A DNA stretch of 64,000 bases from an uncultured Bacilli bacterium (GTDB lineage Bacteria; Bacillota_I; Bacilli_A; RF39; UBA660): positions 11,736 through 75,735 of the forward strand of contig CAKOMW010000002.1 of NCBI GenBank assembly GCA_934096805.1, read 5' to 3'. Made by a program: the position numbers and the translations under genes. The first letter of the stretch is position 1. Each line of letters starts with the position of its first letter. Shown here in pieces: positions 36,356 through 61,613 of the stretch. The notes under the pieces were generated by a model. That model was not told where the DNA came from. It saw only the letters and a program-made list of their open reading frames with translations, and did not search any database.

Positions 36356-37904
36356 ATGACAAATAAATATTCGTCTGGGGGGGGGGCAAAATACTACTAG
36401 CCCTATAAATAAAAAAGGGAAAACAATAAAAATAATATCAATAATAATACTTTTAATACTAATAGTAATTAGTATATCTTTTGCATTAGGTAATATTGAT
36501 ATAAATATACTAGGAAGAAGAAATATAAAAATATCTAAATGTGAACTAGATATAAACTTTAAAGAAAGTGAAGAACTAATGCTAGTAAGTAAATATCCCA
36601 TATCAAAAGAAGAAGCATTAAAGTATAATGCAAAAGAAATAAATATAACAAACAATTCTACATGTGATACAGCTTATTATAAAGTAACAATAAAAGACTT
36701 AGTAAATTCATCTATAAATAAAGATAAGATTAACTATCAAGTAATAGATAAAAGTACAAATACAGAAACAATAGATAAAAACCCAGATAACTTTAATATA
36801 AGTGATTCACTTACTAAAGGAAATACAAAAACATACACAATAAGACTATGGATAGATGAAAGTGCAACCAATACTGACTTATTTATAAATGGAGATACAA
36901 CAAAACCAATAGAATATAAATATGCACTTAACATAGAATCAAGTGATGAAGAGATAAAAGGAGCAGGCATGACAGCAACAGAATTTGCCCAAGCAAATGT
37001 AGGACAAAATGGTTTGGAACAAATAACACATACTATAGATAATACACTTCAAGTTGATGAAAGATTTGCAACAGAATATAGATACAGGGGAGGAAATTCC
37101 ACAGTAAATAATTGGGTATATTTTAACTGCAGTGATCCCTCTAATCAAACAGACTCAACATGCGAAAAATGGATGATAATTGGAGTAATTCCAACAGAAG
37201 ACGCAAATGGAAATGTTACAAACAGGTTCAAAATGCTAAGACAAATCATTCGTAATGGAGATTTGTGTATAATAAAACCATCAGGTGGAGGTGGCTCATC
37301 AGGTGGAGGTGGCTCATCAGGTGGAGGAAACGGTTCTACAGATACTTTGTATAGCTGCAACAATAATTACGCAAACAATACTATGTATAATTATTGTTTT
37401 TCGGAAAATATTATAAACTCTAACTATACAGATTATGTAGATTATGCAAAGTATTATCTTGGTGGTTATAGCTCAATAGACGTTACTCCAAAACAAATGT
37501 GGCAGTATGAGAGAAAAAATGAAGCTAACAGAGAAGGATATTTTTATAAAGATAATCAGTTGAATGTTACTAAAAAAGTTGCATTTTTAAGTATCAGTGA
37601 CCATGGATATGCCTCAAGTAACTGTGAAGATAAAACTTTAAACGGTGATAATTCAGACAACATTTATTCCTGTGATAATTGGATATTAGATAGGTTTGAT
37701 CAAGGGAACATTCGAATATTTATTAATGCAGGCTCTGCTAGTAACAAAAGTATTTATCATTTTTCATCGTCCAGGATTATTCTCAGTGAAATGAAAACTA
37801 ACAGTACCGCTCAAGTCATTAACGTCCTAACCCTCTCTTCCAACATTAAAATTACTGGAGGTAAAGGTACTAAGACTGAACCATACCAATTATCAGTGGA
37901 ATAA
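36356..37904 (+). CDS. Poly-G phase-variable surface protein family, copy 2. It is frameshifted in the G tract. The main ORF 36579-37904 is restored by -1 G.
   Basis: With G9 the reading frame gives MTNKYSSGGGQNTTSPINKKGKTIKIISIIILLILIVISISFALG.. (signal anchor), continuous with MLVSKYPIS... It contains a (GGGGS) linker repeat. Confidence 0.65.
36377..36386 (+). repeat. Homopolymeric G tract, n=10, in codons 8-11 of copy 2 (out of frame, OFF; G9 would be ON)
   Basis: ATG ACA AAT AAA TAT TCG TCT G10 then CAAAATACTACTAG gives TAG six codons later. Removing one G fuses to the 441-aa ORF. Confidence 0.8.
37281..37330 (+). repeat. 18-nt tandem repeat (TCAGGTGGAGGTGGCTCA) x about 2.7 encoding an SGGGGS linker in copy 2
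   Basis: PSGGGGSSGGGGSSGGGNGS in the ORF. The repeat is perfect at the DNA level. Confidence 0.7.
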
Positions 37905-38335
37905 TACAAAAATAAATAAAATATAAAAAAATTAAAAAAATATAAAAATTCAGTTTCATTTAAGAAATATCCACTATACTTAAGATGTAAACAAAAATAT
38001 TTGTTTATGAAAGAGGTGAGATATGACATACAAAAAGCAATATTAAAAAAATAAAAACTTAAACTCCTAAAAAGAATTTGCGAAAAAAATCGCAAAATGT
38101 AAAAAATATAAAAATATTAACAAACCTGTCTAATTAAAAAAACGAAAAAAGATGAAATTTAAACGATTCGAAAATTTACAATTATTTGTGTTGTAAAACG
38201 CCTAATAATAAAATGATGGTAACTTTAGCCATCATTTTTATTTGATATAATAATCAAATAAAACCCTAACAAAAATTACTTTATTTTATTAAACAAAAAT
38301 GATATAATACACATGTATATAAAGGAGAGATACCC

Positions 38336-39181
38336 ATGATTGATATCATTTTAGATACATTAATCGATGCTTTAAAACTGTTACCATTTTTATTTGCAAC
38401 ATTCCTTGTAATAGAATACATCGAACACAAACTAAAGGACAAACCAAGACAAAAACTACAAAATAGTAAATACGGTCCTGTAATCGGAGCCCTTCTCGGA
38501 GCCTTTCCTCAATGCGGTTTTAGCGTCGCTGCCACTAACCTCTATATCACAAGGATAATCTCCTTAGGTACCTTAATTGCAATTTTTCTATCAACTAGTG
38601 ATGAAATGCTACCAATCCTAATAGCAAACAAAACAAACCCCATAATCATAATAAAAATAGTAAGCATAAAAATAATAATTGGTATGATCTGTGGTATTAT
38701 AATAGACCTAATATACAAAAAAAATAAAAAAGAAGAAATAGAAAAATCTCCCTACGAAATATGTGAACATTCAAAATGTGGCTGTAATAATAACATTATA
38801 AAATCATCTCTAAAACATACCATAAATATATTGATATTCATCATAATCATCAGTTTCATATTAAACTTATCACTTTCTTATCTAGGTCAAGACAAAATAA
38901 AAACATTATTTCTAAATAATAATATTTTTGCCCCATTTATATCTGGTTTAATAGGTCTAATTCCAAACTGTGGTGCAAGCATAGCTTTAACAGAACTTTA
39001 CCTAGAAGACGTCATCACCCTTGGAACATCATTATCAGGGCTTTTATCAGGAAGTGGAATAGGGCTTCTAGTACTAATAAAACAAAACAAAAATATTAAA
39101 CAAAACATCCTAATAATTTTAACAATTTATCTAATCGGAGTAATAAGTGGTATTATCATTAATCTAATTAATATCATGTAA
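38336..39181 (+). CDS. Integral membrane protein with an internally duplicated P(Q/N)CG(F/A)S motif (putative permease)
   Basis: About 8 TM helices, two-fold internal repeat. SD AAAGGAG. Confidence 0.4.
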   Translation: MIDIILDTLIDALKLLPFLFATFLVIEYIEHKLKDKPRQKLQNSKYGPVIGALLGAFPQCGFSVAATNLYITRIISLGTLIAIFLSTSDEMLPILIANKTNPIIIIKIVSIKIIIGMICGIIIDLIYKKNKKEEIEKSPYEICEHSKCGCNNNIIKSSLKHTINILIFIIIISFILNLSLSYLGQDKIKTLFLNNNIFAPFISGLIGLIPNCGASIALTELYLEDVITLGTSLSGLLSGSGIGLLVLIKQNKNIKQNILIILTIYLIGVISGIIINLINIM

Positions 39182-39193
39182 AAGGAGGACCTT

Positions 39194-40504
39194 ATGGAAA
39201 TAATAGGACTAAATGAAGAAAAAATAAAACAAATATCAAAGATGAAACAAGAAGACCCAACCATTCTAGACTATCGCCTAAAATGTTACAATAAGTTCAA
39301 AGAACTAGGACTTCCTTCCTTTGGACCTAAAATAAACATTGACTTTGACAAAGTAAAATACTATAAAAACAATCTAGACAACAACATAAAAAACGATTGG
39401 AATAATATTGAAAATCAAGTAAAAGATGAATTCAATAACCTTGGGGTAATATCATCAGAAAAATACTTAGACGGAATCGGTGTTCAATACCAAAGCGAAG
39501 TAATATATCACAACATGCTAAAAGAATTAAACGATAAAAATGTAATCTTCACTTCAATAGAAAATGCTATGAAAAAATATCCGGAACTAGTAAACAAATA
39601 CTTCTCAAAAATAGTATCCCCATCAGAAAATAAATTCACTGCCTTAAATGGTGCTGTTTTTTCAGGAGGAAGCTTTATCTATATACCAAAAAACACCAAA
39701 CTAGATAGACCGCTCCAAAGTTACTTCAGAATAAACAGCAAAGATTTAGGACAATTTGAAAGAACCTTAATCGTAGTGGACGACAACAGTGAACTTCATT
39801 ATATCGAAGGATGCACAGCAAGAGACTATTCCACTAGCAACCTTCATGCAGCAGTAGTAGAAATATATGTAGGAAAAAACAGTAAATGTCGCTACAGTAC
39901 TATTCAAAACTGGGCTACCAACGTTTATAACCTCGTAACAAAAAGAGCCTTAGTCGAAGAAAACGGAACCATGGAATGGATAGACGGAAACATAGGTTCA
40001 TACAAAACAATGAAATACCCATGTTGCGTCCTAAAAGGAGACTACTCCAAAGGTACATGTATCACTATAAGCATCGCTAAAGGAAAACAACAACAAGACA
40101 GTGGAGCCAAAATGATTCACATCGGAAAAAACACAACCAGCAACATTATCTCTAAAAGCATTGCCATGGAAAATGGTTCATCAGACTATCGTGGTAAGGT
40201 AGAAATAAAAAAAAGTGCGACAAACTCAACCTCGCTTGTAAAATGTGATAGTCTAATCCTCGATAAAAACTCCAGTAGCGACACATATCCTAATAACATT
40301 GTCAACAATAACACTAGCAACATTGAACACGAAGCAACCGTTTCAAAAATAAGCGAAGAGAAACTATTCTACATGATGAGCCGTGGCATCTCCAAAGAAA
40401 AAGCCATTGAACTAATTATACTAGGATTCACAGACAGATTTAAACAAGAACTTCCAATGGAATACGCTGTTGAATTAAATCAACTATTAAAACAAAATTT
40501 ATAA
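39194..40504 (+). CDS. sufB: Fe-S cluster assembly protein SufB
   Basis: NWATNVYNLVTKRALVEENGTMEWIDGNIGS...KYPCCVLKGD...KMIHIGKNTTSNIISKSIA, a SufB-specific conserved block. Confidence 0.85.
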   Translation: MEIIGLNEEKIKQISKMKQEDPTILDYRLKCYNKFKELGLPSFGPKINIDFDKVKYYKNNLDNNIKNDWNNIENQVKDEFNNLGVISSEKYLDGIGVQYQSEVIYHNMLKELNDKNVIFTSIENAMKKYPELVNKYFSKIVSPSENKFTALNGAVFSGGSFIYIPKNTKLDRPLQSYFRINSKDLGQFERTLIVVDDNSELHYIEGCTARDYSTSNLHAAVVEIYVGKNSKCRYSTIQNWATNVYNLVTKRALVEENGTMEWIDGNIGSYKTMKYPCCVLKGDYSKGTCITISIAKGKQQQDSGAKMIHIGKNTTSNIISKSIAMENGSSDYRGKVEIKKSATNSTSLVKCDSLILDKNSSSDTYPNNIVNNNTSNIEHEATVSKISEEKLFYMMSRGISKEKAIELIILGFTDRFKQELPMEYAVELNQLLKQNL

Positions 40505-40681
40505 AAAAAGTTAAATTATGCTACTTTGACCATTTTGAACATAAAAAACTAACCAAAAAAGTAATTTTTCCCTAGAGAAAAACTACTTTTTTAATACAAA
40601 AAAAACAACAAAAAATAAAAAATGCCCATTTGCAACCGCAAAATTAATTAGGTATTATATCACCAGAAAGGAGGTGATTTA

Positions 40682-41017
40682 ATGCTTAATCAAGTTACAC
40701 TAGTAGGAAGACTAGTAAAAAAACCAGAAGTAGTAGAGTCAGAAAACAAAACCAAAAGAAGTATCATCACCTTAGCAGTGCCAAGAAACTTCAAAAACGT
40801 AAACGGTGAATACGAAACTGACTTCATTGACTGCATTCTCTGGCAAAACAATGCCCTAAACACTGCAGAATACTGTGACAAAGGCGACATAATAGGAATA
40901 AGAGGAAGAATTCAAACCTCAGTATATGAAAAAGAAGGAACTAAAATATACAAAAAAGAAATAATCGCAGAAAAAGTAACATTCCTATCAGGGAATAAAA
41001 AAGAAAAGACAGAATAA
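40682..41017 (+). CDS. Single-stranded DNA-binding protein, short form lacking the acidic C-terminal tail
   Basis: OB-fold MLNQVTLVGRLVKKPE........W.....GD...I.GR. Ends ..GNKKEKTE without a DDDIPF-type tail. Confidence 0.7.
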   Translation: MLNQVTLVGRLVKKPEVVESENKTKRSIITLAVPRNFKNVNGEYETDFIDCILWQNNALNTAEYCDKGDIIGIRGRIQTSVYEKEGTKIYKKEIIAEKVTFLSGNKKEKTE

Positions 41018-41119
41018 TCTGTCTTTTAAAATAAAAAAACAAAAATCGAATTAACTTTCGGCTAATAACGACATTTTATTCATTATATTTTCTTATAATG
41101 TAACCATGAGGTGAATAAA

Positions 41120-41482
41120 ATGGTTTTAGCAAACAGAATAAAGCAGTGTAGAAAGAGCAAAAACATGACACAAGAAGAGCTAGGCAACCTTATAGACGTT
41201 TCTAAAGTAAGCATTTGCCAATGGGAAAAAGGTACAAAAACACCAAGTACCAAAAACCTGATATTACTCTCAAAAATATTCAACATTGAATTAGAATACC
41301 TAATAGGAAACGATAACTATGTAGTAGCATCAAATGACGAAAAATATGGAATGGCAATGGCCAAAGAAGAAATAGACATCATACGTGAATTAAAAAGACA
41401 CGATAAACTATACAAAGAACTACTAGAAAATCCAAAAAGAGCAGTAGAAAGAATAGAAAAGAGTATCTATAAACATATGTAA
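41120..41482 (+). CDS. XRE-family HTH transcriptional regulator (HipB-like antitoxin candidate)
   Basis: LANRIKQCRKSKNMTQEELGNLIDVSKVSICQWEKG helix-turn-helix. SD GAGGTGA before the ATG at 41120. Confidence 0.7.
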   Translation: MVLANRIKQCRKSKNMTQEELGNLIDVSKVSICQWEKGTKTPSTKNLILLSKIFNIELEYLIGNDNYVVASNDEKYGMAMAKEEIDIIRELKRHDKLYKELLENPKRAVERIEKSIYKHM

Positions 41483-41562
41483 ATAAATTATATATGTTTA
41501 TTTTTTTATATAGGAAAAAATAAAAAAAAATGATATAATATATAAAGAAAGAAGGTGTAACT

Positions 41563-42753
41563 ATGAAGTGCATATTAATGAATAAAAACACCCCTGTTTT
41601 AGTAGCAGAATACAATACAACCCTGAATGTATTTGACAGAATGTACGAAATTATAGACATCAACTACGCGCCATTAATCATTAAAAATTACTATGAAGAA
41701 GAACAAGATGCATTAATATTACTCAAAAGACTAGGGGAATGGTTTAACGGAAGAGGCATTCCATCATGGAGAGATAAACTAGACTTATTACTTCATAGAC
41801 TTAACATCGAAACCCCCACAGAATTATTAGATAAAGCCTTTGGACTTTCACTATCTGACCAATACTGGTTAAAACCATACGATTTAGAAATAAAATACGA
41901 TGACATCAACTTTTTTGATAATGACTTTGATTATGCTGAGTTTTTAGAAGCATCACTTTCACTCAATAGCAAAACCATAAAAAAAGAAGCATCATTAAAG
42001 ACACCAAATAATACAACAGATGGTATGCTAAAAAAAGCATGGATTATCGAAAATAAAACAAGATACCTATTAAAAGGTGGATACAAAAACGAAATTCTCC
42101 AACCATTTAACGAAGTTCTGGCATCAATGATTTGTGAAAGACTAGGATTTGACCATGTTACATACACATTAGACACCTATAAAGATACAGTCGTTTCAAA
42201 ATGTCCATGTTTTATAAACAAAAACACAGAACTAATTACTTGCTACCAAATAAGAAACAATATGAAAAGACATGACTCAGAAGAAGACTACGAAGATTAC
42301 ATCAAAAAACTGGAAGAAAACAACATAAAAGATGCAAGAATCAAAATAGAAAACATGTACATTCTAGACTTCCTTATAATGAATGAAGATAGACACTTAA
42401 ACAACTTTGGCATCATAAGAGACGTAAATACTTTAAAATGGATAGACGTTGCACCAATATTTGATAATGGTATGGCCCTTTCAATTCAAAGCTACGACGA
42501 TGAAGAGCTAATTATATCAGGGCATGGTAGATTATTCTACGAAATAAAACCATTCGATGAAATCATTAAAGTAGTAAAAGACATTACAAGAATAGATGTC
42601 TCAAAACTAGAAGACATCCCAGAAGAATTTGACAACATGTTACACAAATATCAATACCTAACCAAAATATCAGATAAAAGAATATATAGACTATGCGTAC
42701 TATTACAAAGACAAATAAATAAACTAAAAAAACTAATCGAAGAAGCCCAATAA
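41563..42753 (+). CDS. HipA-like Ser/Thr kinase family protein (toxin candidate)
   Basis: DFLIMNEDRHLNNFGII matches the HipA C-terminal catalytic motif (..L.GN.D.H.KN.S). About 400 aa. Downstream of the XRE regulator. Confidence 0.5.
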   Translation: MKCILMNKNTPVLVAEYNTTLNVFDRMYEIIDINYAPLIIKNYYEEEQDALILLKRLGEWFNGRGIPSWRDKLDLLLHRLNIETPTELLDKAFGLSLSDQYWLKPYDLEIKYDDINFFDNDFDYAEFLEASLSLNSKTIKKEASLKTPNNTTDGMLKKAWIIENKTRYLLKGGYKNEILQPFNEVLASMICERLGFDHVTYTLDTYKDTVVSKCPCFINKNTELITCYQIRNNMKRHDSEEDYEDYIKKLEENNIKDARIKIENMYILDFLIMNEDRHLNNFGIIRDVNTLKWIDVAPIFDNGMALSIQSYDDEELIISGHGRLFYEIKPFDEIIKVVKDITRIDVSKLEDIPEEFDNMLHKYQYLTKISDKRIYRLCVLLQRQINKLKKLIEEAQ

Positions 42754-42873
42754 ATAGCTTCTTTTTTCATGTAAATTAATGTAAAACAACAAAAAAAAAA
42801 GTTAAATCTATGTTTACAAACTTAATAAATACATAGTAAAATAATAATATAAAAAAAGAAAGGAGTTTTAAAT

Positions 42874-43863
42874 ATGGAAAAGAAAAATAATAAGGGGTTA
42901 ACAATAATAATTGTAACATTAATAGTCTTACTTCTAGGGGTAGTTTGTTATATTTATTATGATAAATTCTTAAACAATGATAATAACAATAATGTTAATA
43001 GCCCTAACAACACAAACAAAACGAAAGAAGATACTGATTTTTATTCTATTAATAATTTAGTTAAAAATCACTATATTAAAAAGTTAACTTCTACTACCAG
43101 CGATGGAATAGAAATAAAAGACGGCAGTGTCTACTATGTTGCTACAATCGGAGGGAAACTTATTAAAGACACTTCCATTACTGAACAACCAGTAGCAGTC
43201 TATTCAACCCTAAAAGGTGGTCTTGTTGGGCCTTTATCTTTATACGTCTTAACTAAAGAAAATAATCTTTACTATTGCATCCAAAATTACAGTGACAGTG
43301 AAACTGTTCCTACATTTACAAAAATAAATACTAAGAAAATTGCTAATGTTTATACAGAATATTTAAAAGGTGACAACTTTATCGGCGTTGACTACGGAGA
43401 TGGTAACCTATACATTCATTCTCCAGAAGGATTTACCAATACTTACAAAGAAACGTACAAATACCCTGATTATCAAGACGCATATAAAACAGCAGATACC
43501 ATTCTATGGAGAATTGATACAGATAAAAAATTATATGCCTTTGTTGTATCTGAAACAAACCCTGATAATGGAGACTATAAAGAAGTAACTTACAACCAAA
43601 AACCAGTTGTTGTTAAAAATACTTTTAATGGGTACTTAAATAATACAATTGTTAACTTTGTAATCGATAATGATAATAACTTATTAACAGATAGCAAAGA
43701 CAAGACTGATTTATCACTATACAAAAACTCTAAAGTTAAAGATGCAAAATATGAAAAAGATAAAGATGGAAACTATAACGTTACAGTCACTCTAGAAGAC
43801 GGAAGCAATATTTTTATAAGCAATGCTACACTTTCATCATTATATCTAAGAAACAATTCATAA
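42874..43863 (+). CDS. Hypothetical secreted/membrane-anchored protein
   Basis: SD AAAGGAG, N-terminal TM. 329 aa, N/D/Y-rich. Confidence 0.45.
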   Translation: MEKKNNKGLTIIIVTLIVLLLGVVCYIYYDKFLNNDNNNNVNSPNNTNKTKEDTDFYSINNLVKNHYIKKLTSTTSDGIEIKDGSVYYVATIGGKLIKDTSITEQPVAVYSTLKGGLVGPLSLYVLTKENNLYYCIQNYSDSETVPTFTKINTKKIANVYTEYLKGDNFIGVDYGDGNLYIHSPEGFTNTYKETYKYPDYQDAYKTADTILWRIDTDKKLYAFVVSETNPDNGDYKEVTYNQKPVVVKNTFNGYLNNTIVNFVIDNDNNLLTDSKDKTDLSLYKNSKVKDAKYEKDKDGNYNVTVTLEDGSNIFISNATLSSLYLRNNS

Positions 43864-43976
43864 GAGAAAAATAATTAATAAAAAAAGACTTCAATTTACA
43901 CAATGAAGTTCTTTTTTCTACATCTTAATGACATTTTTCAAGAAATTTGTTATACTTACCATAGGAGATGATTACT

Positions 43977-44399
43977 ATGAATAAAAAAGGCTTTACCCTA
44001 ATAGAACTATTAGCCATAATCGTAATCTTAGGAATACTAGCAGCAATGAGTACAATGATGGTAGGAAACTATGTAAAAAACTCTAAGAAAGATGCTACAA
44101 GAGTAACTGCTCAAACAATGATAAACGCCGTACTAGACGACTTAGAACTACTAGAAGTAAAAGATGAAACACCAGAAAATAAAACTTATGATTTTCTTGG
44201 AGAAAACAAAAACTTACTAGAAAAACCATTAAACAAAAGCCCTTGGGAATACAAAATAACAGCGGCAAAAGTATACTTAACAAACTATAGCAATATAACA
44301 ATATGTATAAAAGATGAAAAAGGAAACGGAGTAAAAGGAACAGAAGAACAAATAAAAAGTAATAAAGACTTAATATACGAAAATATAACTTGTAACTAA
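43977..44399 (+). CDS. Prepilin-type N-terminal cleavage/methylation domain protein (type IV pilin / ComGC-like pseudopilin)
   Basis: MNKKGFTLIELLAIIVILGILAAM class-III signal peptide (G|FTLIE). 141 aa. Confidence 0.65.
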   Translation: MNKKGFTLIELLAIIVILGILAAMSTMMVGNYVKNSKKDATRVTAQTMINAVLDDLELLEVKDETPENKTYDFLGENKNLLEKPLNKSPWEYKITAAKVYLTNYSNITICIKDEKGNGVKGTEEQIKSNKDLIYENITCN

Positions 44400-44412
44400 A
44401 AGGAGGAAAACT

Positions 44413-45886
44413 ATGAACAAATATTCGTCTGGGGGGGGGGCAAAATACTACTAACCCTATAAATAAAAAAGGGAAAACAATAAAAATAATATCAATAATA
44501 ATACTTTTAATACTAATAGTAATTAGTATATCTTTTGCATTAGGTAATATTGATATAAATATACTAGGAAGAAGAAATATAAAAATATCTAAATGCGAAC
44601 TAGATATAAACTTTAAAGAAAGTGAAGAACTAATGCTAGTAAGTAAATATCCCATATCAAAAGAAGAAGCATTAAAGTATAATGCAAAAGAAATAAATAT
44701 AACAAACAATTCTACATGTGATACAGCTTATTATAAAGTAACAATAAAAGACTTAGTAAATTCATCTATAAATAAAGATAAGATTAACTATCAAGTAATA
44801 GATAAAAGTACAAATACAGAAACAATAGATAAAAACCCAGATAACTTTAATATAAGTGATTCACTTACTAAAGGAAATACAAAAACATACACAATAAGAC
44901 TATGGATAGATGAAAGTGCCACCAATACAGACTTATTTATAAATGGGGATACAACAAAACTAATAGAATATAAATATGCACTTAACATAGAATCAAGTGA
45001 TGAAAAATTAAAAGGACCAGATTATGCTTTAGAGTTTGCCCAAGCAAATGCAGGACAAAATGGTTTAGAACAAATAACTCATACAATAGATAATACACTT
45101 CAAGTAGATAATAAATTTGCAACAGAATACAGATACAGAGGAGGAGATTCTGTAGTAAAGAACTATGTAACATTTAATAATGAAACATGGAGAATAATCG
45201 GAATAATACCAACTGAAGATACAAATGGTAATGTAGAAAATAGAATTAAGATAATAAGGGATACTTCAATAGGAAATAAATATTGGAATACAATTAAAGA
45301 TACAACAACTAATTCATATAATAACTGGGTAACAGGAACATTAAATACATACTTAAATAATGATTATTATAATACATTAAGTACTGATGCCAAGAATATG
45401 ATAGGAACAACAAAATATTATCTTGGAGGATATGATTCTTCTAATAAAACCTCCGACATAATGTGGCAATATGAAAGAAAGAATGATGCCAATAGAAGTG
45501 GCTACTATTATGGAACTAATCCAATAATGCAAAGTGATGCAAATAAAAAGATAGCAATAATGTATGCCAGTGATTATGGATATGGAGCATCAACAAGTTG
45601 TACGAATACATTGAAATATTATGCTGGCATAAATTATGATTCAAGTACAGAATGTAATAGAACAAATAATTGGTTAGATAAAAGTCAAGCCATATGGTTA
45701 CTTTCTCAGATTACAGCCGATTCCTACGGCGCTTTCAATATGAGCTCGAGTGGCTATGTCGATAACGGCGGCAACGTCGGCAACGACGAGTATGCAGTCC
45801 GCCCAGTCCTAAGTCTGTCATCTAACGTAAAGATTTCAGGTGGAGAAGGCACTTCGAGTAGTCCTTACACCTTATCAGAAAAATAA
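44413..45886 (+). CDS. Poly-G phase-variable surface protein family, copy 3 (frameshifted in the G tract). The start is 13 nt after the pilin-like gene, with SD AAAGGAGGA.
   Basis: About 590 bp of the 5' end are nearly identical to copies 2 and 4. C-terminal VRPVLSLSSNVKISGGEGTSSSPYTLSEK. Confidence 0.65.
44431..44440 (+). repeat. Homopolymeric G tract, n=10, in copy 3 (OFF; G9 would be ON)
   Basis: ATG AAC AAA TAT TCG TCT G10 CAAAATACTACTAA gives a TAA stop. Removing one G fuses to the 417-aa ORF at 44633. Confidence 0.8.
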
Positions 45887-46027
45887 TGTTATCAACGATT
45901 TATAAAAAAGAAACCATACAAAACTAGGCTCTATATTTTTTGATGGGTCAATTTCAAATAAGGCTTCACGGTACAGTGGTGTCTTTTTTATATAATAACT
46001 TCGTATTTTATTGATTTTGTGAACACC

Positions 46028-46091
46028 TATTTTACATTTTGGCTAATTTTTATTTTACAATTTGGACAAAAATCATTTTACATTTTGGCCA
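46028..46091 (+). repeat. Three direct repeats of about 19 bp (TATTTTACATTTTGGCTAA-like) spaced 22-23 bp, upstream of gatCAB
   Basis: tattttacattttggctaa / tattttacaatttggacaa / cattttacattttggccaa. Confidence 0.4.
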
Positions 46092-46257
46092 ACTTTAATC
46101 TTTATGAATAGTAATCATTTCATTAATATATATTTTTATCACATTACTTTTAGAAATAGTACATTATAATCATACAAACAGTTTTCTTTACACTAAAAAC
46201 TCATTTTTCTTTAATTATTCTTTCATACATGCTATAATATATAGGACGGAGGTAAGT

Positions 46258-51973: not shown

Positions 51974-51974
51974 A

Positions 51975-52823
51975 ATGAAACGCGAAGTAAAAAAAATATA
52001 CAAAAACTTTCTAGATGCTTTAAAAACACCAGAATTAATGATTCTACCAGGACAATTAGCATTCTATATCCTTATGTCAATTATTCCTATAATTGCCATA
52101 ATCTCTTTAGTAGCATCATACTTAATAAACAACTTTGATTTATACAAAACAATAAGCTCAATTGTCCCAGATGTTCTAGCATCAACAATTATAAGACTAA
52201 TCGACAATACCACAATAGGAAACGTCGCTTTCATTATAATATGCTACATCATTTTAGGTTCAAATGGCCCCTCTGCCATCATAATATCATCAAATGAAAT
52301 ATATGGTCTAAAACAACCAAACTTTATAAAGCTAAAAATAAAAGCATGCCTCATGACAATGATAATCGTGCTTTTATTCCTATTTATTATAATAATTCCT
52401 CTCTTAGGGAACATTATTCTAAAAAACATTAGCTATTACTTCCCCATGGCAGGAAGCATAAAAAATTATTATCCTATAATAACAATCTTAAAATACCTAG
52501 GCTCATTCTTAGTAATATACATGGGAATAAAACTCTTATATACACTTGGGCCTAACAAAACCATAAAAAGCAAACACACAACTCTAGGTTCAATCTTTAC
52601 AACCCTAGGCTTCATCATAACAACAGAGCTATTTGCCTTTTATATATCAAACATCGCAAGATATGACAAACTATATGGCAACTTTGCCAATATATTAATA
52701 TTACTTATTTGGATCTATCTACTAGCATACATCTTTGTCGTAGGAATGGCCATCAATGTAAATAGATACCAAAACAAGGAGTGTCAAAATGAAAAGGAAA
52801 AAAATAACAAATCTAAAAAATAA
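51975..52823 (+). CDS. YihY/BrkB-family membrane protein
   Basis: LPGQLAFY.LMSIIP motif and six TM segments. Confidence 0.65.
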   Translation: MKREVKKIYKNFLDALKTPELMILPGQLAFYILMSIIPIIAIISLVASYLINNFDLYKTISSIVPDVLASTIIRLIDNTTIGNVAFIIICYIILGSNGPSAIIISSNEIYGLKQPNFIKLKIKACLMTMIIVLLFLFIIIIPLLGNIILKNISYYFPMAGSIKNYYPIITILKYLGSFLVIYMGIKLLYTLGPNKTIKSKHTTLGSIFTTLGFIITTELFAFYISNIARYDKLYGNFANILILLIWIYLLAYIFVVGMAINVNRYQNKECQNEKEKNNKSKK

Positions 52824-54813: not shown

Positions 54814-54814
54814 T

Positions 54815-55462
54815 ATGAAAAAAGATAAAAATAATAAAAAGAACACCAAAAAAAATAAAAAAATTATAATACCAATCATAATCATATTACTAGTAGCACT
54901 ATCAATCGGAGGATACTTAATATTTAAGCAAACAACAGATAAAAGCACATCTGCAAAAACAAAAGTAGTAGACAAAATAGATAACTATGGATACACTCTA
55001 GAAAAAGATGCTACAAACCTATACAAAGAACTTTTTAAAAAACTTCAAAAAGTTCTAAATGAAAACGAAGTAAACGAAGAAGAATATGCCAAACTAATCG
55101 CTCAAATGGCATCATCAGACTTCTATACTCTAGACAATAAAATGTCTAAAAACGACATTGGAGGTTCCCAATTTATATACGAACCATATCGTAAAAACTT
55201 TGTTCTTGAAGCATCAGAAACAGTATACAAATATATTCAACATAACCTTTATGGAACAAGAACTCAACAATTACCAGAAGTAGACCAAGTAGACGTTGAA
55301 GAAATAAAACAAGAAAGTTATAAATATAAAAAAATAAACGATGAAAAAGCCTATACTGTAAAAGTAAAATTAGTATACAAAAAAGATATGGGCTACCCAT
55401 CAAACGTAACTGTAAAACTATTACACAACAACAAAAAACTAGAAGTTTATTACATGAAATAA
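54815..55462 (+). CDS. Hypothetical membrane-anchored protein
   Basis: SD AAGGAG, N-terminal TM. Confidence 0.4.
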   Translation: MKKDKNNKKNTKKNKKIIIPIIIILLVALSIGGYLIFKQTTDKSTSAKTKVVDKIDNYGYTLEKDATNLYKELFKKLQKVLNENEVNEEEYAKLIAQMASSDFYTLDNKMSKNDIGGSQFIYEPYRKNFVLEASETVYKYIQHNLYGTRTQQLPEVDQVDVEEIKQESYKYKKINDEKAYTVKVKLVYKKDMGYPSNVTVKLLHNNKKLEVYYMK

Positions 55463-55551
55463 TAAAAAAATAAGAAAAACTACAAATTAAGTAGTTTTTT
55501 CTATTAAAAATAGAAAAAATATGTTAAAATATTCTAGAAGTTGGTGATAAG

Positions 55552-56575
55552 ATGAAAACAAACGATTTTGATTACTACCTACCAGAAGAACTAATTGCTC
55601 AAACACCCTTAAAAGACAGAAGTGCATCCAAGTTAATGGTCGTAGATAAAAAAACAGGAAAAATAAAACATGAAAAATTCCAAAACATAACAAACTATCT
55701 CCATAAAGGAGACGTTCTAGTTCTAAACAACACTAAAGTAATCCCTGCCAGATTAATAGGACTAAAAGAAGAAACAAACGCTACCATTGAATTACTACTA
55801 TTAAAAGAAATAAAAAACGACACATGGGAATGCCTAGTAAAACCAGCAAGAAGAATAAAAGTAGGAACCATTGTAAAAATACAAGACAAGCTAAAATGTG
55901 AATGCATAAAATGCTTAGACGAAGGAATATGTCACTTTAAAATGATATACGACGGAATTCTCCTAGAAATACTAGAAGAACTAGGGACAATGCCACTCCC
56001 ACCATACATCAAAGAAAAACTAAAAGATCAAAACCGTTATCAAACAATCTATGCCAAACAAAGTGGATCAGCAGCCGCACCAACCGCCGGCCTCCACTTT
56101 ACCAAAGAAATACTAAAAAAACTAAAAGAACAAGGAGTAATAATCTGCTATATTACTCTTCATGTCGGACTAGGAACATTTAGACCAGTAAAAGTAGACG
56201 ATGTAAAAAAACACCAAATGCACAAAGAATACTACGAAATAGATAAAGAAACATGCGATATTTTAAACAAAGCCAAACAAGACAAAAGAAAAATAGTAAG
56301 CGTTGGCACAACTACAACCAGAACCCTAGAATCAGTAATGACTAAATATAATAAATTTATTCCAACCAAAGAAGAAACCGATATCTTTATCTATCCTGGA
56401 TATAAGTTCAAAGCCATAGACACTCAGATAACAAACTTTCATCTGCCAAAGTCAACACTAATCATGCTAGTAAGTGCCTTTGCCACCAAAGAAATAATTC
56501 TAAATGCTTATAAAGAAGCAGTAAAAAATAAATATAGATTCTTCTCATTCGGAGACTCTATGATACTGGGGGATT

Positions 56576-56589
<14 letters not shown>
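55552..56589 (+). CDS. queA: S-adenosylmethionine:tRNA ribosyltransferase-isomerase
   Basis: N-terminal DFDY.LP.ELIAQ.P...[13 protein letters not shown]. 345 aa. Confidence 0.9.
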
Positions 56590-58028
<1,439 letters not shown>

Positions 58029-58086
58029 AAAATATGATAAAATATATTAGTAGTACCCAAAATATAATAAAAAAGGAAGTGTTTTA

Positions 58087-59802
58087 ATGAAGTTAAGTCA
58101 AAACTTCTTCTATACTTTAAGAGAAGACGTAAAAAATGAAGACTGCAAAAGTAGTAATCTATTAGTAAAAAGTGGAATGATTAAAAGAGTATCAAGTGGA
58201 ATTTATATGTACATGCCTCTAGGACTAAAAGTTATTAGAAACATCGAAAAAATAGTAAGAGACGAAATGAACAAACAAGGAGCTCTAGAACTTCTAATGC
58301 CAAGCCTTCTTCCAAGTGAAGCCTATGAAAAAAGTGGTAGAAAAGAAAACTTCGGTAAAAGCATGTTCAACCTAAAAGATAGAAACAACAGAGACTATGT
58401 CCTTGGACCAACCCACGAAGAACTATTTGTAAATGCAGCATCAAGTATGATAAAATCATACAAAGACATGCCATTCACTATATATCAAATGGCCACTAAA
58501 TACCGTGACGAAGCCCGTCCTAGATACGGACTTATAAGAGTAAGAGAATTTACCATGAAAGATGCATACTCATTTGATCATACCTATGAAGGACTAGATA
58601 AATCATATAAAACAATGTTCAAAGCCTATAAAAACATATTTGACAAAATAGGACTAGACTATAAAATAGTACGAGCAGACACAGGATTAATGGGAGGACT
58701 CCTATCCGAAGAATTCCAAGCCATAACCGATATCGGAGAAGACACAATAGTAATATGTGAAGAATGTGGCTTCAGATCAAACATAGAAATATGCAAATGC
58801 GTAATCGAATACGACGACATTCCACTATCAGATAAAGAAAAAGAACTAATCCATACCCCAAACATAAAAACCATAAACGACCTAGTAGAAAATGGATTCG
58901 ATATAAATGACTTAACTAAAACTCTAATATATAAAACAGACACTGAATTAGTAGCCTGCCTCATAAAAGGAGACAGAGACATAAATGAACTAAAATTACA
59001 AAACCTACTAGAAACAAAAACACTAGAACTAGCAACTGAAGAAGAAGTAGAAAAAGTAACAAATGCTAAAATAGGTTCAATTGGACCAATAGGATTAAAA
59101 ATTCCAATCATCGTAGATAAAGAAGTAATCCTAATGCAAGACTTTGTAGTCGGAGCAAACAAAACAGACTACCACTACAAAAACGCAAACGTCTATGACC
59201 TTGACCACTATCGAGTAGCAGACATAAAAAATGTTAAAGAAAGAGATAAATGTCCAGAATGCCGAGGAAAACTAGTCTTTAAAAAAGGAATAGAAATAGG
59301 AAACACCTTCAAGCTAGGTACAAAATATTCACAACTTTTAGATCTAAAATACTTAGATAAAAATAATAGAGAAAGACATCCAATAATGGGATCATACGGA
59401 ATAGGAATTGATAGAGTACTAGCAGCAGTAATAGAACAAAACAACGACGACAAAGGAATAATATTTCCAATATCAATTGCTCCATATAAAGTAGCAATAG
59501 TTCTAATAAATAATAAAGACGAAAAACAAAAACAAGTAGCAGAAGAAATATACAATAAACTAAACGAAAAAGGTATAGACACAATCCTAGACGATAGAGA
59601 AGAAAGACCAGGAGTAAAATTCAATGATATGGACTTAATAGGTATACCAATTAGAATAACAGTAGGAAAGAAAGTAGATAAAGATAAAGTAGAAATAAAA
59701 CTAAGAAAAGAAGACACATCAAAAGACATAAAAGTAGATAAAATAGAAGAAGAAATCCAAAAACAAATAAGAAAACTATCAAGAAAAAGTAAAAAGAAAT
59801 AA
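58087..59802 (+). CDS. proS: Proline--tRNA ligase
   Basis: Class II aaRS motifs. N-terminal SQ.F..TLRE...DA...S..LL..AG.I, editing-domain insertion. 571 aa. Confidence 0.9.
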   Translation: MKLSQNFFYTLREDVKNEDCKSSNLLVKSGMIKRVSSGIYMYMPLGLKVIRNIEKIVRDEMNKQGALELLMPSLLPSEAYEKSGRKENFGKSMFNLKDRNNRDYVLGPTHEELFVNAASSMIKSYKDMPFTIYQMATKYRDEARPRYGLIRVREFTMKDAYSFDHTYEGLDKSYKTMFKAYKNIFDKIGLDYKIVRADTGLMGGLLSEEFQAITDIGEDTIVICEECGFRSNIEICKCVIEYDDIPLSDKEKELIHTPNIKTINDLVENGFDINDLTKTLIYKTDTELVACLIKGDRDINELKLQNLLETKTLELATEEEVEKVTNAKIGSIGPIGLKIPIIVDKEVILMQDFVVGANKTDYHYKNANVYDLDHYRVADIKNVKERDKCPECRGKLVFKKGIEIGNTFKLGTKYSQLLDLKYLDKNNRERHPIMGSYGIGIDRVLAAVIEQNNDDKGIIFPISIAPYKVAIVLINNKDEKQKQVAEEIYNKLNEKGIDTILDDREERPGVKFNDMDLIGIPIRITVGKKVDKDKVEIKLRKEDTSKDIKVDKIEEEIQKQIRKLSRKSKKK

Positions 59803-59907
59803 AAAAGTTGAAATAGATTAATGATTAATTCTATTTCTTTTTTTCATATACTAAACTACATAATAGTGATAATAAGCGAAATCAAGAAGATAAAAAACAA
59901 AAGGTAC

Positions 59908-59936
59908 TTGAAAAAAGTAAAATTTTGATATAAAAT
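59908..59936 (+). promoter_or_regulatory. Promoter TTGAAA-N17-TAAAAT of copy 4
   Basis: Conserved with the other copies. Confidence 0.4.
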
Positions 59937-60015
59937 TAAGTTATAGAAAACTAAAGAGGAGGACAGGTGTAACTACAAAAATTCATGCATCATGTACAAA
60001 CACCTAATAAGTAAC

Positions 60016-61613
60016 ATGGTAAACAAATATTCGCTAGGGGGGGGGGGCAAAATACTACTAACCCTATAGATAAGAAAGGGAAAACAATAAAAATAATATC
60101 AATAATAATACTTTTAATACTAATAGTAATTAGTATATCTTTTGCATTAGGAAATATTGATATAAATATACTAGGAAGAAGAAATATAAAAATATCTAAA
60201 TGCGAACTAGATATAAACTTTAAAGAAAGTGAAGAACTAATGCTAGTAAGTAAATATCCCATATCAAAAGAAGAAGCATTAAAGTATAATGCAAAAGAAA
60301 TAAATATAACAAACAATTCTACATGTGATACAGCTTATTATAAAGTAACAATAAAAGACTTAGTAAATTCATCTATAAATAAAGATAAGATTAACTATCA
60401 AGTAATAGATAAAAGTACAAATACAGAAACAATAGATAAAAACCCAGATAACTTTAATATAAGTGATTCACTTACTAAAGGAAATACAAAAACATACACA
60501 ATAAGACTATGGATAGATGAAAGTGCAACCAATACTGACTTATTTATAAATGGAGATACGACAAAACCAATGGAATACAGATATGCATTAAACATAGAAT
60601 CAAGTGATGAATATATGAAAGTAGACTATGCATTAACCTTTGCTAAGTCAAAAGTAGGAACAGACGGACTAGAAATAGTAACCCATGAAATAGATGACAC
60701 ACTTCAAGTAGATAATAAGTTTGCTACAGAATACAGATATAGAGGAGGAGATTCCATAGTAAATAACTATGTAACATTCAATAATGAAACATGGAGAATA
60801 ATAGGAATAATTCCAACAGAAGATACAGACGGTAATGTAGAAAACAGATTTAAGATAATAAAAGATGAATCTATTGGATATTATGTTTGGGATAGTGATA
60901 CCGAAATAACATATGATTATGAAATAAATAATAATTTTAATCTTTTGAATAACAATAATAATGATATAATCACCCCAAATGATTTAATTAACCATAATGA
61001 AAAATATGAAACTATACAGACAGCACCTGATTTGGGAACAAAAAAATGTACTACTTGTAGTAATAATTGGGCTAGACCTAGTGCATTGAATACATATTTG
61101 AATAGTACATATTATAATTCAATAAATACTAATTCAAAAAATATGATAGGAACAACAAAATATTATCTTGGAGGATATAATACTTCTGATATAACAAATG
61201 ATGTAATGTGGCAATATGAAAGAAAGAATGATGTCAACAGAAGTGGTTATTATTCTGATACAAATCCAGTAATGTCAAATGATGCATCTAAGAGTATTGC
61301 ATTAATGTATGCCAGTGATTATGGGTATGGAGCCTCAAAAGAGTGTCCACAAACACTAAATAACTATAAGAACGATACATTATGTAAAATGACAAATAAT
61401 TGGTTAGATAAGTCTCTAAAGGAATGGCTACTTCCACAGTATCCAGATGGTGGTAGATTGTTTTATCTTGAGTCCAGCAACGTCGAACATTACAACGGTT
61501 GGACTCTGACTTACTATTCTTTTGCAGTTCGTCCAATTTTATCTTTATCATCCAACGTAAAAATTTCAGGTGGAGAAGGAACTTCTTCTAATCCATACAC
61601 TCTGTCACAATAA
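60016..61613 (+). CDS. Poly-G phase-variable surface protein family, copy 4 (frameshifted in the G tract)
   Basis: 5' about 590 bp nearly identical to copies 2 and 3. Divergent middle. C-terminal FAVRPILSLSSNVKISGGEGTSSNPYTLSQ. Confidence 0.65.
60037..60047 (+). repeat. Homopolymeric G tract, n=11, in copy 4 (OFF; G9 or G12 would be ON)
   Basis: ATG GTA AAC AAA TAT TCG CTA G11 CAAAATACTACTAACCCTATAG gives a TAG stop. The offset to the 60240 ORF is 224 nt, which is 2 mod 3. Confidence 0.8.

What the first reader, a model, noticed from the sequence alone, without database searches (positions are those of the whole stretch)
36356..60610. About 590 bp of near-identical 5' sequence in copies 2, 3 and 4, followed by abrupt divergence: a mosaic cassette structure and recombination substrates
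From the G tract through codon about 195 (…ALNIESSDE), copies at 36.36, 44.41 and 60.02 kb differ by only a handful of substitutions. Downstream they become different sequences that still keep short conserved blocks (ATEYRYRGG, WRIIG(I/V)IPTED, TTKYYLGGY, MWQYERKN, SLSSNVKISGGEGTS..PYTLS). Identity this high next to divergent 3' halves implies ongoing gene conversion of the 5' module, or cassette shuffling of the 3' modules. Direct repeats of this size 8 kb and 16 kb apart also predict deletion and duplication polymorphisms of the intervening housekeeping genes (sufB, ssb, gatCAB, proS and others).
Basis: seen in the sequence. Interest (0 to 1): 0.6.

Follow-up and report, generated by a model that had tools for sequence, protein, structure and literature searches.

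The report
Shared 5' module of phase-variable genes
Three genes of an uncultured human-gut Bacilli bacterium share an almost identical 590-bp front end (a poly-G on/off switch, a secretion signal and a stalk domain) that copying between the genes keeps uniform, while their lectin-like heads stay old and different: a familiar strategy for varying a cell surface, seen here in a lineage and protein family where I found no published description.

Summary
From just before the poly-G tract to codon ~195 (36362-36948, 44416-45002, 60022-60609) the three copies differ at 6-13 of 560 sites, and at only 1-2 in the central 437 nt. Identity then falls to 30-80%, abruptly for c2/c4 and in two steps for the other pairs.

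The block encodes the front of a secreted or membrane-anchored protein: a leader peptide with a G9-11 frameshift switch, a hydrophobic helix and a beta-sandwich domain. It ends at the predicted domain boundary. A DUF6273-like (C-type-lectin-like) head follows.

Interlocus gene conversion is well supported:
- Synonymous divergence is 0.04-0.07 in the module against 0.7-1.5 downstream.
- Module copies coalesce within the species, whereas the heads are closer to genes of other species than to paralogues in the same genome.
- Polymorphisms are reassorted among loci.
- All four differences from a near-identical strain over 21 kb fall inside the modules.

Module shuffling also occurs. The predicted deletions or duplications of the intervening housekeeping genes were not seen in six strain assemblies.

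The family is large, with 10-17 or more loci in each sister MAG, and has three types of 5' module. The mechanism is a known kind (opa, vlp and bab-like contingency families). The lineage and the protein family are new for it.

The parts
36356..37904 (+). Copy 2 (c2). The gene runs from ATG 36356 to the stop at 37904 and would encode 515 aa if in frame. As assembled it is out of frame (21 nt + G10).
36377..36386 (+). Poly-G tract of c2 (G10). It would be in frame at G9 or G12.
36362..36948 (+). 5' module of c2: leader, G tract, hydrophobic helix and beta-sandwich domain. It is 98-99% identical to the modules of c3 and c4.
44413..45886 (+). Copy 3 (c3), 490 aa if in frame. It is out of frame as assembled (18 nt + G10). 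Its ATG lies 14 nt after the stop of a prepilin-type gene and has its own GGAGG Shine-Dalgarno (SD) sequence.
44431..44440 (+). Poly-G tract of c3 (G10).
44416..45002 (+). 5' module of c3.
60016..61613 (+). Copy 4 (c4), 531 aa if in frame. It is out of frame as assembled (21 nt + G11).
60037..60047 (+). Poly-G tract of c4 (G11).
60022..60609 (+). 5' module of c4.
36949..37901 (+). Divergent head of c2: a linker plus a DUF6273-like globular domain, containing GGGGSS repeats. dS to c3 and c4 is 1.4-1.5.
45003..45883 (+). Divergent head of c3. Pfam DUF6273 scores 20.9 bits (cut-off 23.5). In the AlphaFold2 (AF2) model the domain (residues 205-481) matches DUF6273-containing structures.
60610..61610 (+). 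Divergent head of c4, with an ~50-aa insertion relative to c3.
6875..8461 (+). Copy 1 (c1). Same leader and tract (G9, in frame, 528 aa) and the same kind of head, but a different N-terminal module (type B, about 26% aa identity to type A).
62169..63747 (+). Copy 5 (c5). Same leader and tract (G11, out of frame), a type C short anchor module, and an unrelated ~450-aa body.
59905..59975 (+). Conserved promoter and 5'UTR cassette (TTGAAA...TATAAA...AGAGGAGGACAGGTGTAA). It is also found upstream of c1 and c5, and upstream of c2 in a variant lacking the GTG-TAA; c3 does not have it.

Best explanation
The ~590-bp repeat is the common 5' module of a multigene family of phase-variable surface or secreted proteins in an uncultured, low-GC gut Bacilli bacterium.

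Shown: each gene begins with a short leader (M-x-N-K-Y-S-S/L) and then a G9-G11 tract that is read as Gly codons. G9 is in frame with the ATG. G10 and G11 stop translation after about 14 codons.

Inferred: slipped-strand length changes in the tract switch each gene on or off.

Shown: the module then encodes a basic stretch, a hydrophobic helix (a signal peptide or membrane anchor) and a ~130-aa beta-sandwich domain. The near-identity ends at the predicted boundary between that domain and the linker to a DUF6273-like (C-type-lectin-like) head.

Well supported: the module is kept nearly identical among c2, c3, c4 and at least one more copy elsewhere in the genome by repeated non-reciprocal recombination (interlocus gene conversion). 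The heads are old paralogous lineages that stay different and are occasionally swapped.

Inferred: the leader and G tract conserved across the whole family mark the 5' limit of the conversion tracts, and their 3' ends scatter around the domain boundary.

Inferred: the cell carries a repertoire of alternative ligand-binding heads on one standard export and stalk module. Each head can be switched independently, which would vary adhesion or help evade antibodies or phages.
For: Poly-G switch:
- There are five G tracts of 7 or more in 64 kb of 29% GC DNA. All are on the + strand, at the same codon position of family genes, and none occurs elsewhere.
- Frame analysis gives G9 as in frame and G10/G11 as out of frame.
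- The same leader and tract head many genes in four other MAG species, with lengths 9, 10 and 11.
- Homologues in databases occur both as full-length forms (MNKYSSGGGQNT...) and as forms truncated to the internal Met. An interrupted, locked-on allele also exists.

Gene conversion:
- dS is 0.036-0.074 in the module against 0.71-1.48 in the 3' part.
- Module copies of one species differ by 1-5%, but by 15-25% from sister species. The head of c3 is 19-22% from genes of other species, yet 27-43% from c4 and c2 of its own genome.
- Variant sites are shared and reassorted among loci and strains. In strain S1, c3 is nearly identical to a copy 80 kb away.
- L056 differs from the window at 4 of 21,311 nt. 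All four lie in the two modules (P about 9e-6) and three of them switch to the state of a paralogue. The three that lie in c3 recur in L058, whose contig does not cover the c2 site.
- The same mosaic pattern is seen among paralogues of two other species.

Domain structure:
- The AF2 model of c3 has pLDDT 83: helix 10-34, beta-sandwich 55-186, linker, globular domain 205-481.
- Fold matches include the DUF6273-containing T. ramosa IgA peptidase 9qa6 (E 2.5e-5) and many phage DUF6273 proteins (PMC12402451; PMC10743442).
- A dockerin is inserted in the N-module of sister-species homologues, which argues for an extracellular location.

Mechanism excluded: no recombinase or reverse transcriptase is present in the window.
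Against: - No reads were available, so tract-length heterogeneity within a population, which is the defining behaviour of a phase switch, was not observed. Near-identical strains all carry the same tract lengths.
- The organism encodes MutS, which should damp homopolymer instability.
- c1, c4 and c5 lack a Shine-Dalgarno sequence next to the ATG. Their SD-like sequence lies 45-80 nt upstream, so translation initiation is not fully understood.
- Short-read assembly across 590-bp repeats can mis-phase single variants, so some individual 'conversion' SNPs could be artefacts.
- The Pfam DUF6273 scores of the window proteins are below the gathering cut-off.
- The ligand and the biological role are unknown.
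Confidence: 0.8

Rival explanations
1. Recent duplication of whole genes, followed by very fast divergence of the heads under diversifying selection. Under this view the 5' part looks identical only because the duplication was recent and the part is under purifying selection. No gene conversion is involved.
For: The heads are surface-exposed, lectin-like domains, which often evolve fast. dN is high there, at 0.26-0.59.
Against: Synonymous divergence in the heads is 0.7-1.5, against 0.04-0.07 in the module. The head lineages predate the species split: c3 is closer to L002, L003 and L004 of other species than to c2 or c4. Orthologous loci in strains 97-99% identical in their flanks carry different module haplotypes made of shared variants.
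Confidence: 0.04
2. Assembly artefact. The near-identity, or part of it, comes from short-read assemblers collapsing or averaging a repeat, so the true copies are more different than they appear.
For: The related genomes fetched are metagenome-assembled, and the window probably is too: its c3 ORF and its SufB are recorded on a 281-kb contig held by NCBI and ENA. Several contigs break exactly at the module (L058, L059, L060, L183), which shows that assemblers struggle with it. The 3' end of c3 in L057 may be a chimeric path.
Against: Independent assemblies from different samples reproduce the same copy-specific variants. L056 and L058 are identical to each other in c3, and L060 is identical to the window across the aligned 5' module of c4. 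Strains with less homogenised copies (L057 with 29 differences, L001 with 26) were assembled by the same kinds of pipeline, so differences are not being erased systematically. Contig breaks at the repeat are what a real repeat produces.
Confidence: 0.07
3. Constraint at the nucleotide level. The 5' block is conserved because the DNA or RNA itself is functional, for example as an mRNA structure, an antisense gene (ORFs 36068-36655 and 44095-44709 on the minus strand) or a binding site, and not because of recombination.
For: Long antisense ORFs overlap the modules. The 5'UTR of c2 holds a strong hairpin.
Against: The module does change between strains and species (2.5-5% and 15-25%), yet it stays uniform within a genome. 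That is the signature of concerted evolution and not of constraint. The antisense ORFs start with TTG, are the kind of antisense ORF that the strong A bias of the coding strand can produce by chance, and are absent from the gene calls on the related contigs.
Confidence: 0.03
4. A programmed cassette system. In this view site-specific inversion or a shufflon, or a diversity-generating retroelement acting on the DUF6273 head, produces the mosaic. Homologous gene conversion is not needed.
For: DUF6273 domains are known DGR targets in phages (PMC10743442). Conserved 5' regions joined to variable 3' cassettes are typical of the Mycoplasma vsa and Bacteroides shufflon systems (my own knowledge).
Against: All copies are complete genes in direct orientation, each with its own start, and there are no silent cassettes. 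No recombinase, invertase or reverse transcriptase is present among the window ORFs of 150 aa or more. Differences between heads are spread along the whole domain and include indels.
Confidence: 0.02

Closest known systems
Neisseria opa genes (my own knowledge)
   Same: Several dispersed paralogues. A simple-sequence repeat inside the signal-peptide coding region shifts the frame on and off independently in each gene. The 5' parts are conserved and the exposed regions are variable. Interlocus recombination produces mosaics.
   Different: The repeat is a pentamer (CTCTT) in opa and a homopolymer here. Opa proteins are Gram-negative outer-membrane beta-barrels. Here the protein is a secreted or anchored two-domain protein of a Gram-positive-type Bacilli lineage.
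Mycoplasma hyorhinis vlp and M. bovis vsp families (my own knowledge)
   Same: Low-GC Bacilli/Mollicutes relatives. These are gene families with a nearly identical 5' region (expression signals and signal peptide) followed by divergent surface domains. A homopolymer controls on/off expression.
   Different: In vlp the poly-A tract lies in the promoter and acts on transcription. The products are lipoproteins with tandem repeats, and the genes are clustered. Here the tract is in the coding sequence, the heads are globular and lectin-like, and the copies are scattered among housekeeping genes.
Helicobacter pylori babA/babB/babC (my own knowledge)
   Same: The paralogues have near-identical 5' segments and divergent ligand-binding middle parts. 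Gene conversion between loci is documented. 5' repeats make some alleles phase-variable.
   Different: The repeats are CT dinucleotides in bab. The 3' ends are conserved as well. The proteins belong to an outer-membrane family.
Campylobacter jejuni poly-G contingency loci (PMC4965091, PMC3025981)
   Same: G tracts of 8-11 inside reading frames of a low-GC gut bacterium give reversible frameshifts, and many such loci occur per genome.
   Different: C. jejuni is described as lacking MutS/MutL-type mismatch repair (my own knowledge). Its loci are mostly unrelated genes for surface-glycan modification, not one protein family with a shared leader. Here MutS is present.
DUF6273 proteins: phage 'tentaclin' receptor-binding proteins and the N-terminal domain of the Thomasclavelia ramosa IgA peptidase (PMC10743442, PMC12402451)
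   Same: The head domain has the same fold. Both are extracellular, and in phages the domain has a role in ligand recognition.
   Different: In phages the domain is diversified by a retroelement. Here diversity comes from a repertoire of paralogues with on/off switches. Sequence similarity to the Pfam model is below the cut-off.

Membership tests
Simple-sequence-repeat contingency (phase-variable) locus | A homopolymer or short repeat lies inside the 5' coding region or the promoter. | tested here: met
   G9-G11 tracts lie at codons 7-10 of five genes. No other G/C run of 7 or more exists in the window.
Simple-sequence-repeat contingency (phase-variable) locus | A change of repeat number moves the gene between an intact and a truncated reading frame. 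| tested here: met
   G9 gives 528 aa in c1. G10 and G11 give a stop after about 14 codons in c2-c5, and the post-tract frame is open for 481-521 codons.
Simple-sequence-repeat contingency (phase-variable) locus | Repeat number is polymorphic among alleles, strains or paralogues. | tested here: met
   Lengths 9, 10 and 11 occur across paralogues and species. Both ON and OFF forms occur among close homologues, and an interrupted locked-ON allele exists. Near-identical strains share the same lengths.
Simple-sequence-repeat contingency (phase-variable) locus | High-frequency reversible switching within a clonal population. | not testable with these tools
   This needs read-level data or cultures.
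Concerted evolution by interlocus gene conversion | Paralogues within a genome or species are more alike in the tract than orthologues between genomes, while flanking segments follow orthology. | tested here: met
   Module: 1-5% within the species, 15-25% between species. Head: c3 is 19-22% from genes of other species but 27-43% from its own paralogues. The core of the module shows 1-2 differences between paralogues against 7-11 between orthologues.
Concerted evolution by interlocus gene conversion | Homogenisation includes synonymous sites. | tested here: met
   dS is 0.036-0.074 in the module against 0.71-1.48 downstream.
Concerted evolution by interlocus gene conversion | Patchy mosaics, with polymorphisms shared between loci. 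| tested here: met
   Shown by the variable-site matrix of 12 copies. All four differences between the window and L056 lie in the modules, and three of them match a paralogue's state.
Pfam DUF6273 (PF19789) | HMM score at or above the gathering cut-off (23.5 bits). | tested here: not met
   c1 scores 20.6 bits and c3 20.9 bits; c2, c4 and c5 have no hit. Many close homologues carry a precomputed PF19789.7 hit. The window copies are therefore called DUF6273-like and are not filed as members on sequence.
Pfam DUF6273 (PF19789) | Same fold as established DUF6273 domains. | tested here: met
   Foldseek matches 9qa6 at E 2.5e-5; its N-terminal domain is DUF6273 (PMC12402451). Several BFVD proteins annotated as DUF6273 match with probability 1.00.
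TasA / archaeal bundling-pilin type donor-strand fibre subunit (considered for the 5' module) | Fold similarity of the beta-sandwich to TasA or ABP subunits. | tested here: inconclusive
   The best PDB match is 7ueg at E 6e-5, but TM-scores are only 0.32-0.35 with rmsd 6.8 A, and TasA itself is not among the top 50 hits. The N-terminal strand is disordered in the monomer model.
TasA / archaeal bundling-pilin type donor-strand fibre subunit (considered for the 5' module) | A dedicated SipW-type (archaeal-type) signal peptidase, or a match to Peptidase_M73. | tested here: not met
   The only signal peptidase in the window is of the bacterial type (TIGR02227, 165 bits, against 19 bits for the archaeal type). 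There is no Peptidase_M73 hit. The rest of the genome was not examined.
Diversity-generating retroelement target | A reverse transcriptase and a template repeat close to the variable gene. | tested here: not met
   No reverse transcriptase is present among the window ORFs, and no repeat of a head segment fits a template repeat.
Site-specific inversion / shufflon cassette system | An invertase or recombinase, inverted recombination sites, and silent cassettes. | tested here: not met
   All copies are in direct orientation and complete, and no recombinase is present in the window.

The most novel reading that the evidence does not exclude
The homogenised 5' module may be more than an export signal. 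It could be a common assembly module: a beta-sandwich with a disordered N-terminal strand, whose best structural match is an archaeal TasA-like bundling pilin, and which carries an inserted dockerin in sister species. Through it, differently headed paralogues would polymerise or dock into one surface fibre or scaffold. Gene conversion would then be selected because it keeps all subunits mutually compatible, and the poly-G switches would set which lectin heads the structure displays. That would amount to a combinatorial, phase-variable adhesive fibre in an uncultured gut Bacilli lineage. A possible second layer exists in sister species: an ATG or TTG overlapping the tract is in frame at G10, which would give three expression states.
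Probability: 0.12. Interest if true: 0.75.

Novelty: new member of a known kind. Interest (0 to 1): 0.45.

Why it matters
Contingency gene families are textbook biology for a few cultured pathogens (Neisseria, Haemophilus, Campylobacter, Helicobacter, mycoplasmas). They are hardly documented for the uncultured Gram-positive-type commensals that make up much of the human gut community.

Here a whole lineage of low-GC gut Bacilli MAGs, from Hadza and Nepali samples, carries 10-17 or more such genes per genome. They share one standard switch and export cassette and carry lectin-like heads of a fold that phages use for receptor binding.

That gives:
- a concrete marker, the leader plus G tract, for measuring phase variation directly in metagenomic reads;
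- a set of candidate adhesins or decoys for host-glycan, IgA or phage interactions;
- a clean natural example of domain-bounded concerted evolution.

It also has a practical side. Gene callers truncate or misstart these genes, and assemblers break contigs at the module.

Tried and rejected
- NCBIfam and Pfam scans of the N-modules gave nothing significant. The only hits were YOMG_N at E 0.075 and DNRLRE at E 0.015, both below their cut-offs.
- A profile search of the family against PDB sequences gave no hit.
- I asked whether a prepilin gene is a regular upstream partner of family genes. It occurs only at c3 of this species.
Only about 12 family loci were recovered.
- Literature searches for this family, for poly-G switches in gut Firmicutes and for RF39 found nothing specific.
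- The hairpin that might bring the distant SD next to the ATG of c1, c4 and c5 is not more stable than shuffled sequence (z -0.4 to 0.07), so no claim is made.
- The 522-aa and 516-aa calls for c2 in ENA records start upstream of an in-frame TGA, and GatA is likewise extended in those records. This looks like gene calling under a code that reads through TGA. They are not ON alleles.

Full report
**What is there**

The window has 29% GC, a strongly A-rich coding strand, and almost all genes on the + strand. It holds exactly five G/C homopolymers of 7 or more. All are G runs on the + strand and all sit in the same context, ATG-x-AAC-AAA-TAT-TCG-xxx-G(9-11)-CAA-AAT. They lie at 6896, 36377, 44431, 60037 and 62189.

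Each tract is followed by an open frame of 481-521 codons. I call the genes c1 to c5.

| Gene | Tract | Frame | Length if in frame |
|---|---|---|---|
| c1 | G9 | in frame | 528 aa |
| c2 | G10 | out of frame | 515 aa |
| c3 | G10 | out of frame | 490 aa |
| c4 | G11 | out of frame | 531 aa |
| c5 | G11 | out of frame | 525 aa |

In the out-of-frame genes the leader peptide stops after about 14 codons. This is why the mechanical ORF list starts c2, c3 and c4 at an internal Met.

**The observation**

From the leader just before the tract to about codon 195 they are nearly identical. There are 6, 11 and 13 differences in the first 560 nt after the tract, and only 1-2 in the central 437 nt.

Upstream of the ATG the copies diverge. 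c3 sits 14 nt behind a prepilin-type gene. c2 and c4 have their own promoter cassette.

Downstream, identity falls to 30-80%. Maximum chi-square breakpoints are at 36950 for c2-c4, 37099 for c2-c3 and 45257 for c3-c4. The chi-square values are 300-428, against at most 18 in permutations. The boundary is therefore real. It is sharp for one pair and two-step for the others.

**What the module encodes**

An AlphaFold2 model of c3 was built on 83 homologues and has mean pLDDT 83. Residue numbers count from the first codon after the tract. It shows:
- a hydrophobic helix (residues 10-34);
- a disordered stretch;
- a beta-sandwich (55-186);
- a short linker helix;
- a globular domain (205-481).

The near-identity ends at the end of the beta-sandwich.

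The head is DUF6273-like. Pfam scores it 20.6-20.9 bits, below the 23.5 cut-off. Many close homologues have the precomputed hit. The fold matches the DUF6273-containing IgA peptidase of Thomasclavelia ramosa (9qa6, E 2.5e-5) and a series of phage DUF6273 proteins (PMC12402451). DUF6273 has been described as C-type-lectin-like and as a receptor-binding domain in phages (PMC10743442).

Homologues in sister species carry a type I dockerin inserted in the N-module. Together with the signal or anchor helix, this places the proteins outside the cell.

**The family**

A protein search returned more than 2,400 relatives, essentially all from metagenomes. A scan of species-representative genomes found 54 loci in five MAGs labelled 'uncultured Bacilli bacterium', with 10-17 loci per genome.

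Many of these loci carry the same leader and a G9-G11 tract. The leader is joined to three types of N-terminal module:
- Type A, as in c2-c4.
- Type B, as in c1.
- Type C, a short anchor, as in c5.

Other homologues have the type A or type B module without any G tract.

Measured against the ATG behind the ribosome-binding site, 16 of 18 complete sister-species genes and 4 of 5 window genes are off. Among about 12 metagenome loci, roughly half are G9 and therefore on.

**Evidence for gene conversion**

1. Synonymous divergence is 0.036-0.074 in the module and 0.71-1.48 in the rest of the same gene pairs.

2. Module copies from three strains of the window's species differ by 1-5% whatever their locus, and by 15-25% from sister species. 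The head of c3 is closer to genes of other species (19-22%) than to c4 (27%) or c2 (43%) of its own genome. The heads are therefore ancient lineages and the modules are young.

3. Strain contigs were recovered through the exact SufB, ProS and RNase R proteins. In a variable-site matrix of 12 module copies from these contigs, the same variants recur in different loci and strains in different combinations. In strain S1, c3 matches a further copy 80 kb away almost perfectly.

4. L056, from another sample, differs from the window at 4 of 21,311 nt. All four lie in the two modules (P about 9e-6) and three change to the state of a paralogue. The three that lie in c3 recur in a third sample, L058, whose contig does not cover the c2 site.

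5. Paralogues in two other species show the same pattern of 92-100% identical 5' ends, with further identical patches elsewhere.

Homogenisation is not equally advanced everywhere. c2 and c3 differ at 29 sites in L057 and at 26 in L001.

**Evidence for module shuffling**

- c5 shares its upstream region and its first ~190 coding nt (88.5%) with a gene of another species. That gene continues into a DUF6273-type head, whereas c5 continues into an unrelated body.
- A c3-type gene, 94% identical to c3 including its downstream flank, sits behind a c4-like promoter in contig L185. Its tract is interrupted and it is locked on.
- The 3' end of c3 in L057 is replaced by c4-like sequence at about 80% identity. 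That contig ends 275 nt later, so a chimeric assembly path cannot be excluded.

**What is not supported**

All strain contigs keep the order c2 - ArsP - SufB - SSB - HTH - HipA-like - unknown - pilin - c3 - GatCAB - ... - QueA - Tgt - ProS - c4. I found no deletion or duplication between the direct repeats. Deletions would remove essential single-copy genes.

No recombinase, invertase or reverse transcriptase is present in the window. This argues against shufflon-type or retroelement mechanisms.

**Caveats**

Phase switching is inferred from frame logic and from polymorphism between alleles. It has not been observed within a population.

MutS is present.

c1, c4 and c5 have their SD-like sequence 45-80 nt upstream of the ATG, next to a GTG-TAA start-stop.

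In sister species, the codon before the tract creates an ATG or TTG that is in frame at G10. Gene callers use this start, giving 'MGGGQNT...'. Whether cells do is unknown.

The resemblance of the beta-sandwich to an archaeal TasA-like pilin (7ueg) is weak, with TM-scores of 0.32-0.35. No SipW-type peptidase is nearby.

**Comparison and verdict**

The arrangement works like the opa, vlp/vsp and bab families, and like the poly-G contingency genes of Campylobacter (PMC4965091). It combines a repeat-controlled frame switch, a conserved 5' part, variable exposed parts and recombination between loci.

It is a new member of that kind. It occurs in an uncultured gut Bacilli lineage and in a protein family (a beta-sandwich plus a DUF6273-like head) for which my literature searches found no description.

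The gene conversion and shuffling readings are supported. The structural-variant prediction is not.

Noticed in passing
window 61667-61898, minus strand (between c4 and c5): A ~230-nt element with 24-nt imperfect terminal inverted repeats folds very stably: -90.7 kcal/mol (z -9.3) on the minus strand and -70.3 (z -7.4) on the plus strand. It has no Rfam family.

On the minus strand it holds GAGGTG followed by an ATG and a 20-32-aa hydrophobic peptide (MSKKD..LLIIIYLLL..). The consensus structure has a long 5'-3' closing helix with compensatory changes at several pairs, and the start codon is paired.

About 20 copies at 68-97% identity occur in the fetched loci. Most lie roughly 150-470 nt upstream of poly-G family genes in sister species.

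It looks like a multicopy type I toxin mRNA. No Pfam toxin family matched.
   Followed up: partly
window 62169-63747 (c5): A fifth gene carries the same leader and a G11 tract (out of frame) and a short type C anchor module. Its ~450-aa body is unrelated to c1-c4 and has no Pfam or NCBIfam hit. Its C-terminal ~170 nt are noticeably GC-richer than the rest of the gene.
   Followed up: partly
window 6875-8461 (c1): This is the only family gene in frame (G9) in the window. It has a different N-module (type B...TGQVKMSYTE...) and the same kind of head. It is also in frame in another sample, L182.
   Followed up: partly
window 6790-6874, 59955-60015, 62105-62168; and 36294-36355: c1, c4 and c5 have AGAGGAGGA followed by a GTG-TAA start-stop 45-80 nt upstream of the real ATG, which has no adjacent SD of its own. 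A 6-bp AGGTGT/ACACCT stem could bring the SD and the ATG together, but it is not more stable than shuffled sequence. c2 instead has a strong hairpin (-16 kcal/mol, z -4.5) between its SD-like sequence and the ATG.
   Followed up: partly
sister-species loci L002-L054 (for example L003:2980-3015): The codon before the tract is TAT, ATT or AAT, so an ATG or TTG overlaps the first G. It is in frame at G10, the commonest length. Most database gene calls therefore start 'MGGGQNT...'. This may be a second start site, giving three expression states, or it may be a gene-caller artefact.
   Followed up: no
window 43968-44399: A prepilin-type gene (GFTLIE motif; TIGR02532 and GspG/ComGC-like N-terminus) ends 14 nt before the ATG of c3, so c3 may be co-transcribed with it. 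It is not found next to family genes in other species.
   Followed up: yes
L057:16300-16929; L185:1-1916; L184:2900-3080: Three strain-level variants were seen:
- In L057 the 3' end of c3 and its downstream flank are replaced by c4-like sequence (about 80% identity) just before the contig ends.
- In L185 a c3-type gene sits behind a c4-like promoter and has an interrupted tract (GGGGGGAGGG), which locks it on.
- In L184 a further paralogue is in frame at G11, because the sequence after the tract reads CAAT instead of CAAAAT.
   Followed up: partly
L056, L057, L058, L060 gene calls: The public gene calls on these contigs start c2 41 nt upstream of the tract, at an ATG that is followed by an in-frame TGA. 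They also extend GatA to 493 aa. I take this to mean a genetic code without TGA stops was used. It makes c2 look intact (522 and 516 aa) when it is out of frame.
   Followed up: yes
window 39-2537: A complete MutS (all five domains) lies in the same window as five long G tracts. The gene that follows it is a methylase and not MutL. Whether mismatch repair is complete in this organism bears on how unstable the tracts are.
   Followed up: no
window 40900-42753: An HTH protein and a HipA_C-like kinase (a possible toxin-antitoxin pair) lie between c2 and c3. A 329-aa and a 645-aa Asn/Lys-rich membrane-anchored protein without known domains lie at 42874-43863 and 19570-21507.
   Followed up: no
metagenome loci L070, L088, L090, L097, L103, L105, L110 and others: An unrelated element recurs in human-gut metagenomes: AACGTATGAATGC(A/G)TAAAATATTCG, then G10-G15, then CTAAAAAATCTGCGAAAATCAG. 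Its G-run length varies. It turned up by chance in the pattern scan and may be another phase-variable site in a different organism.
   Followed up: no
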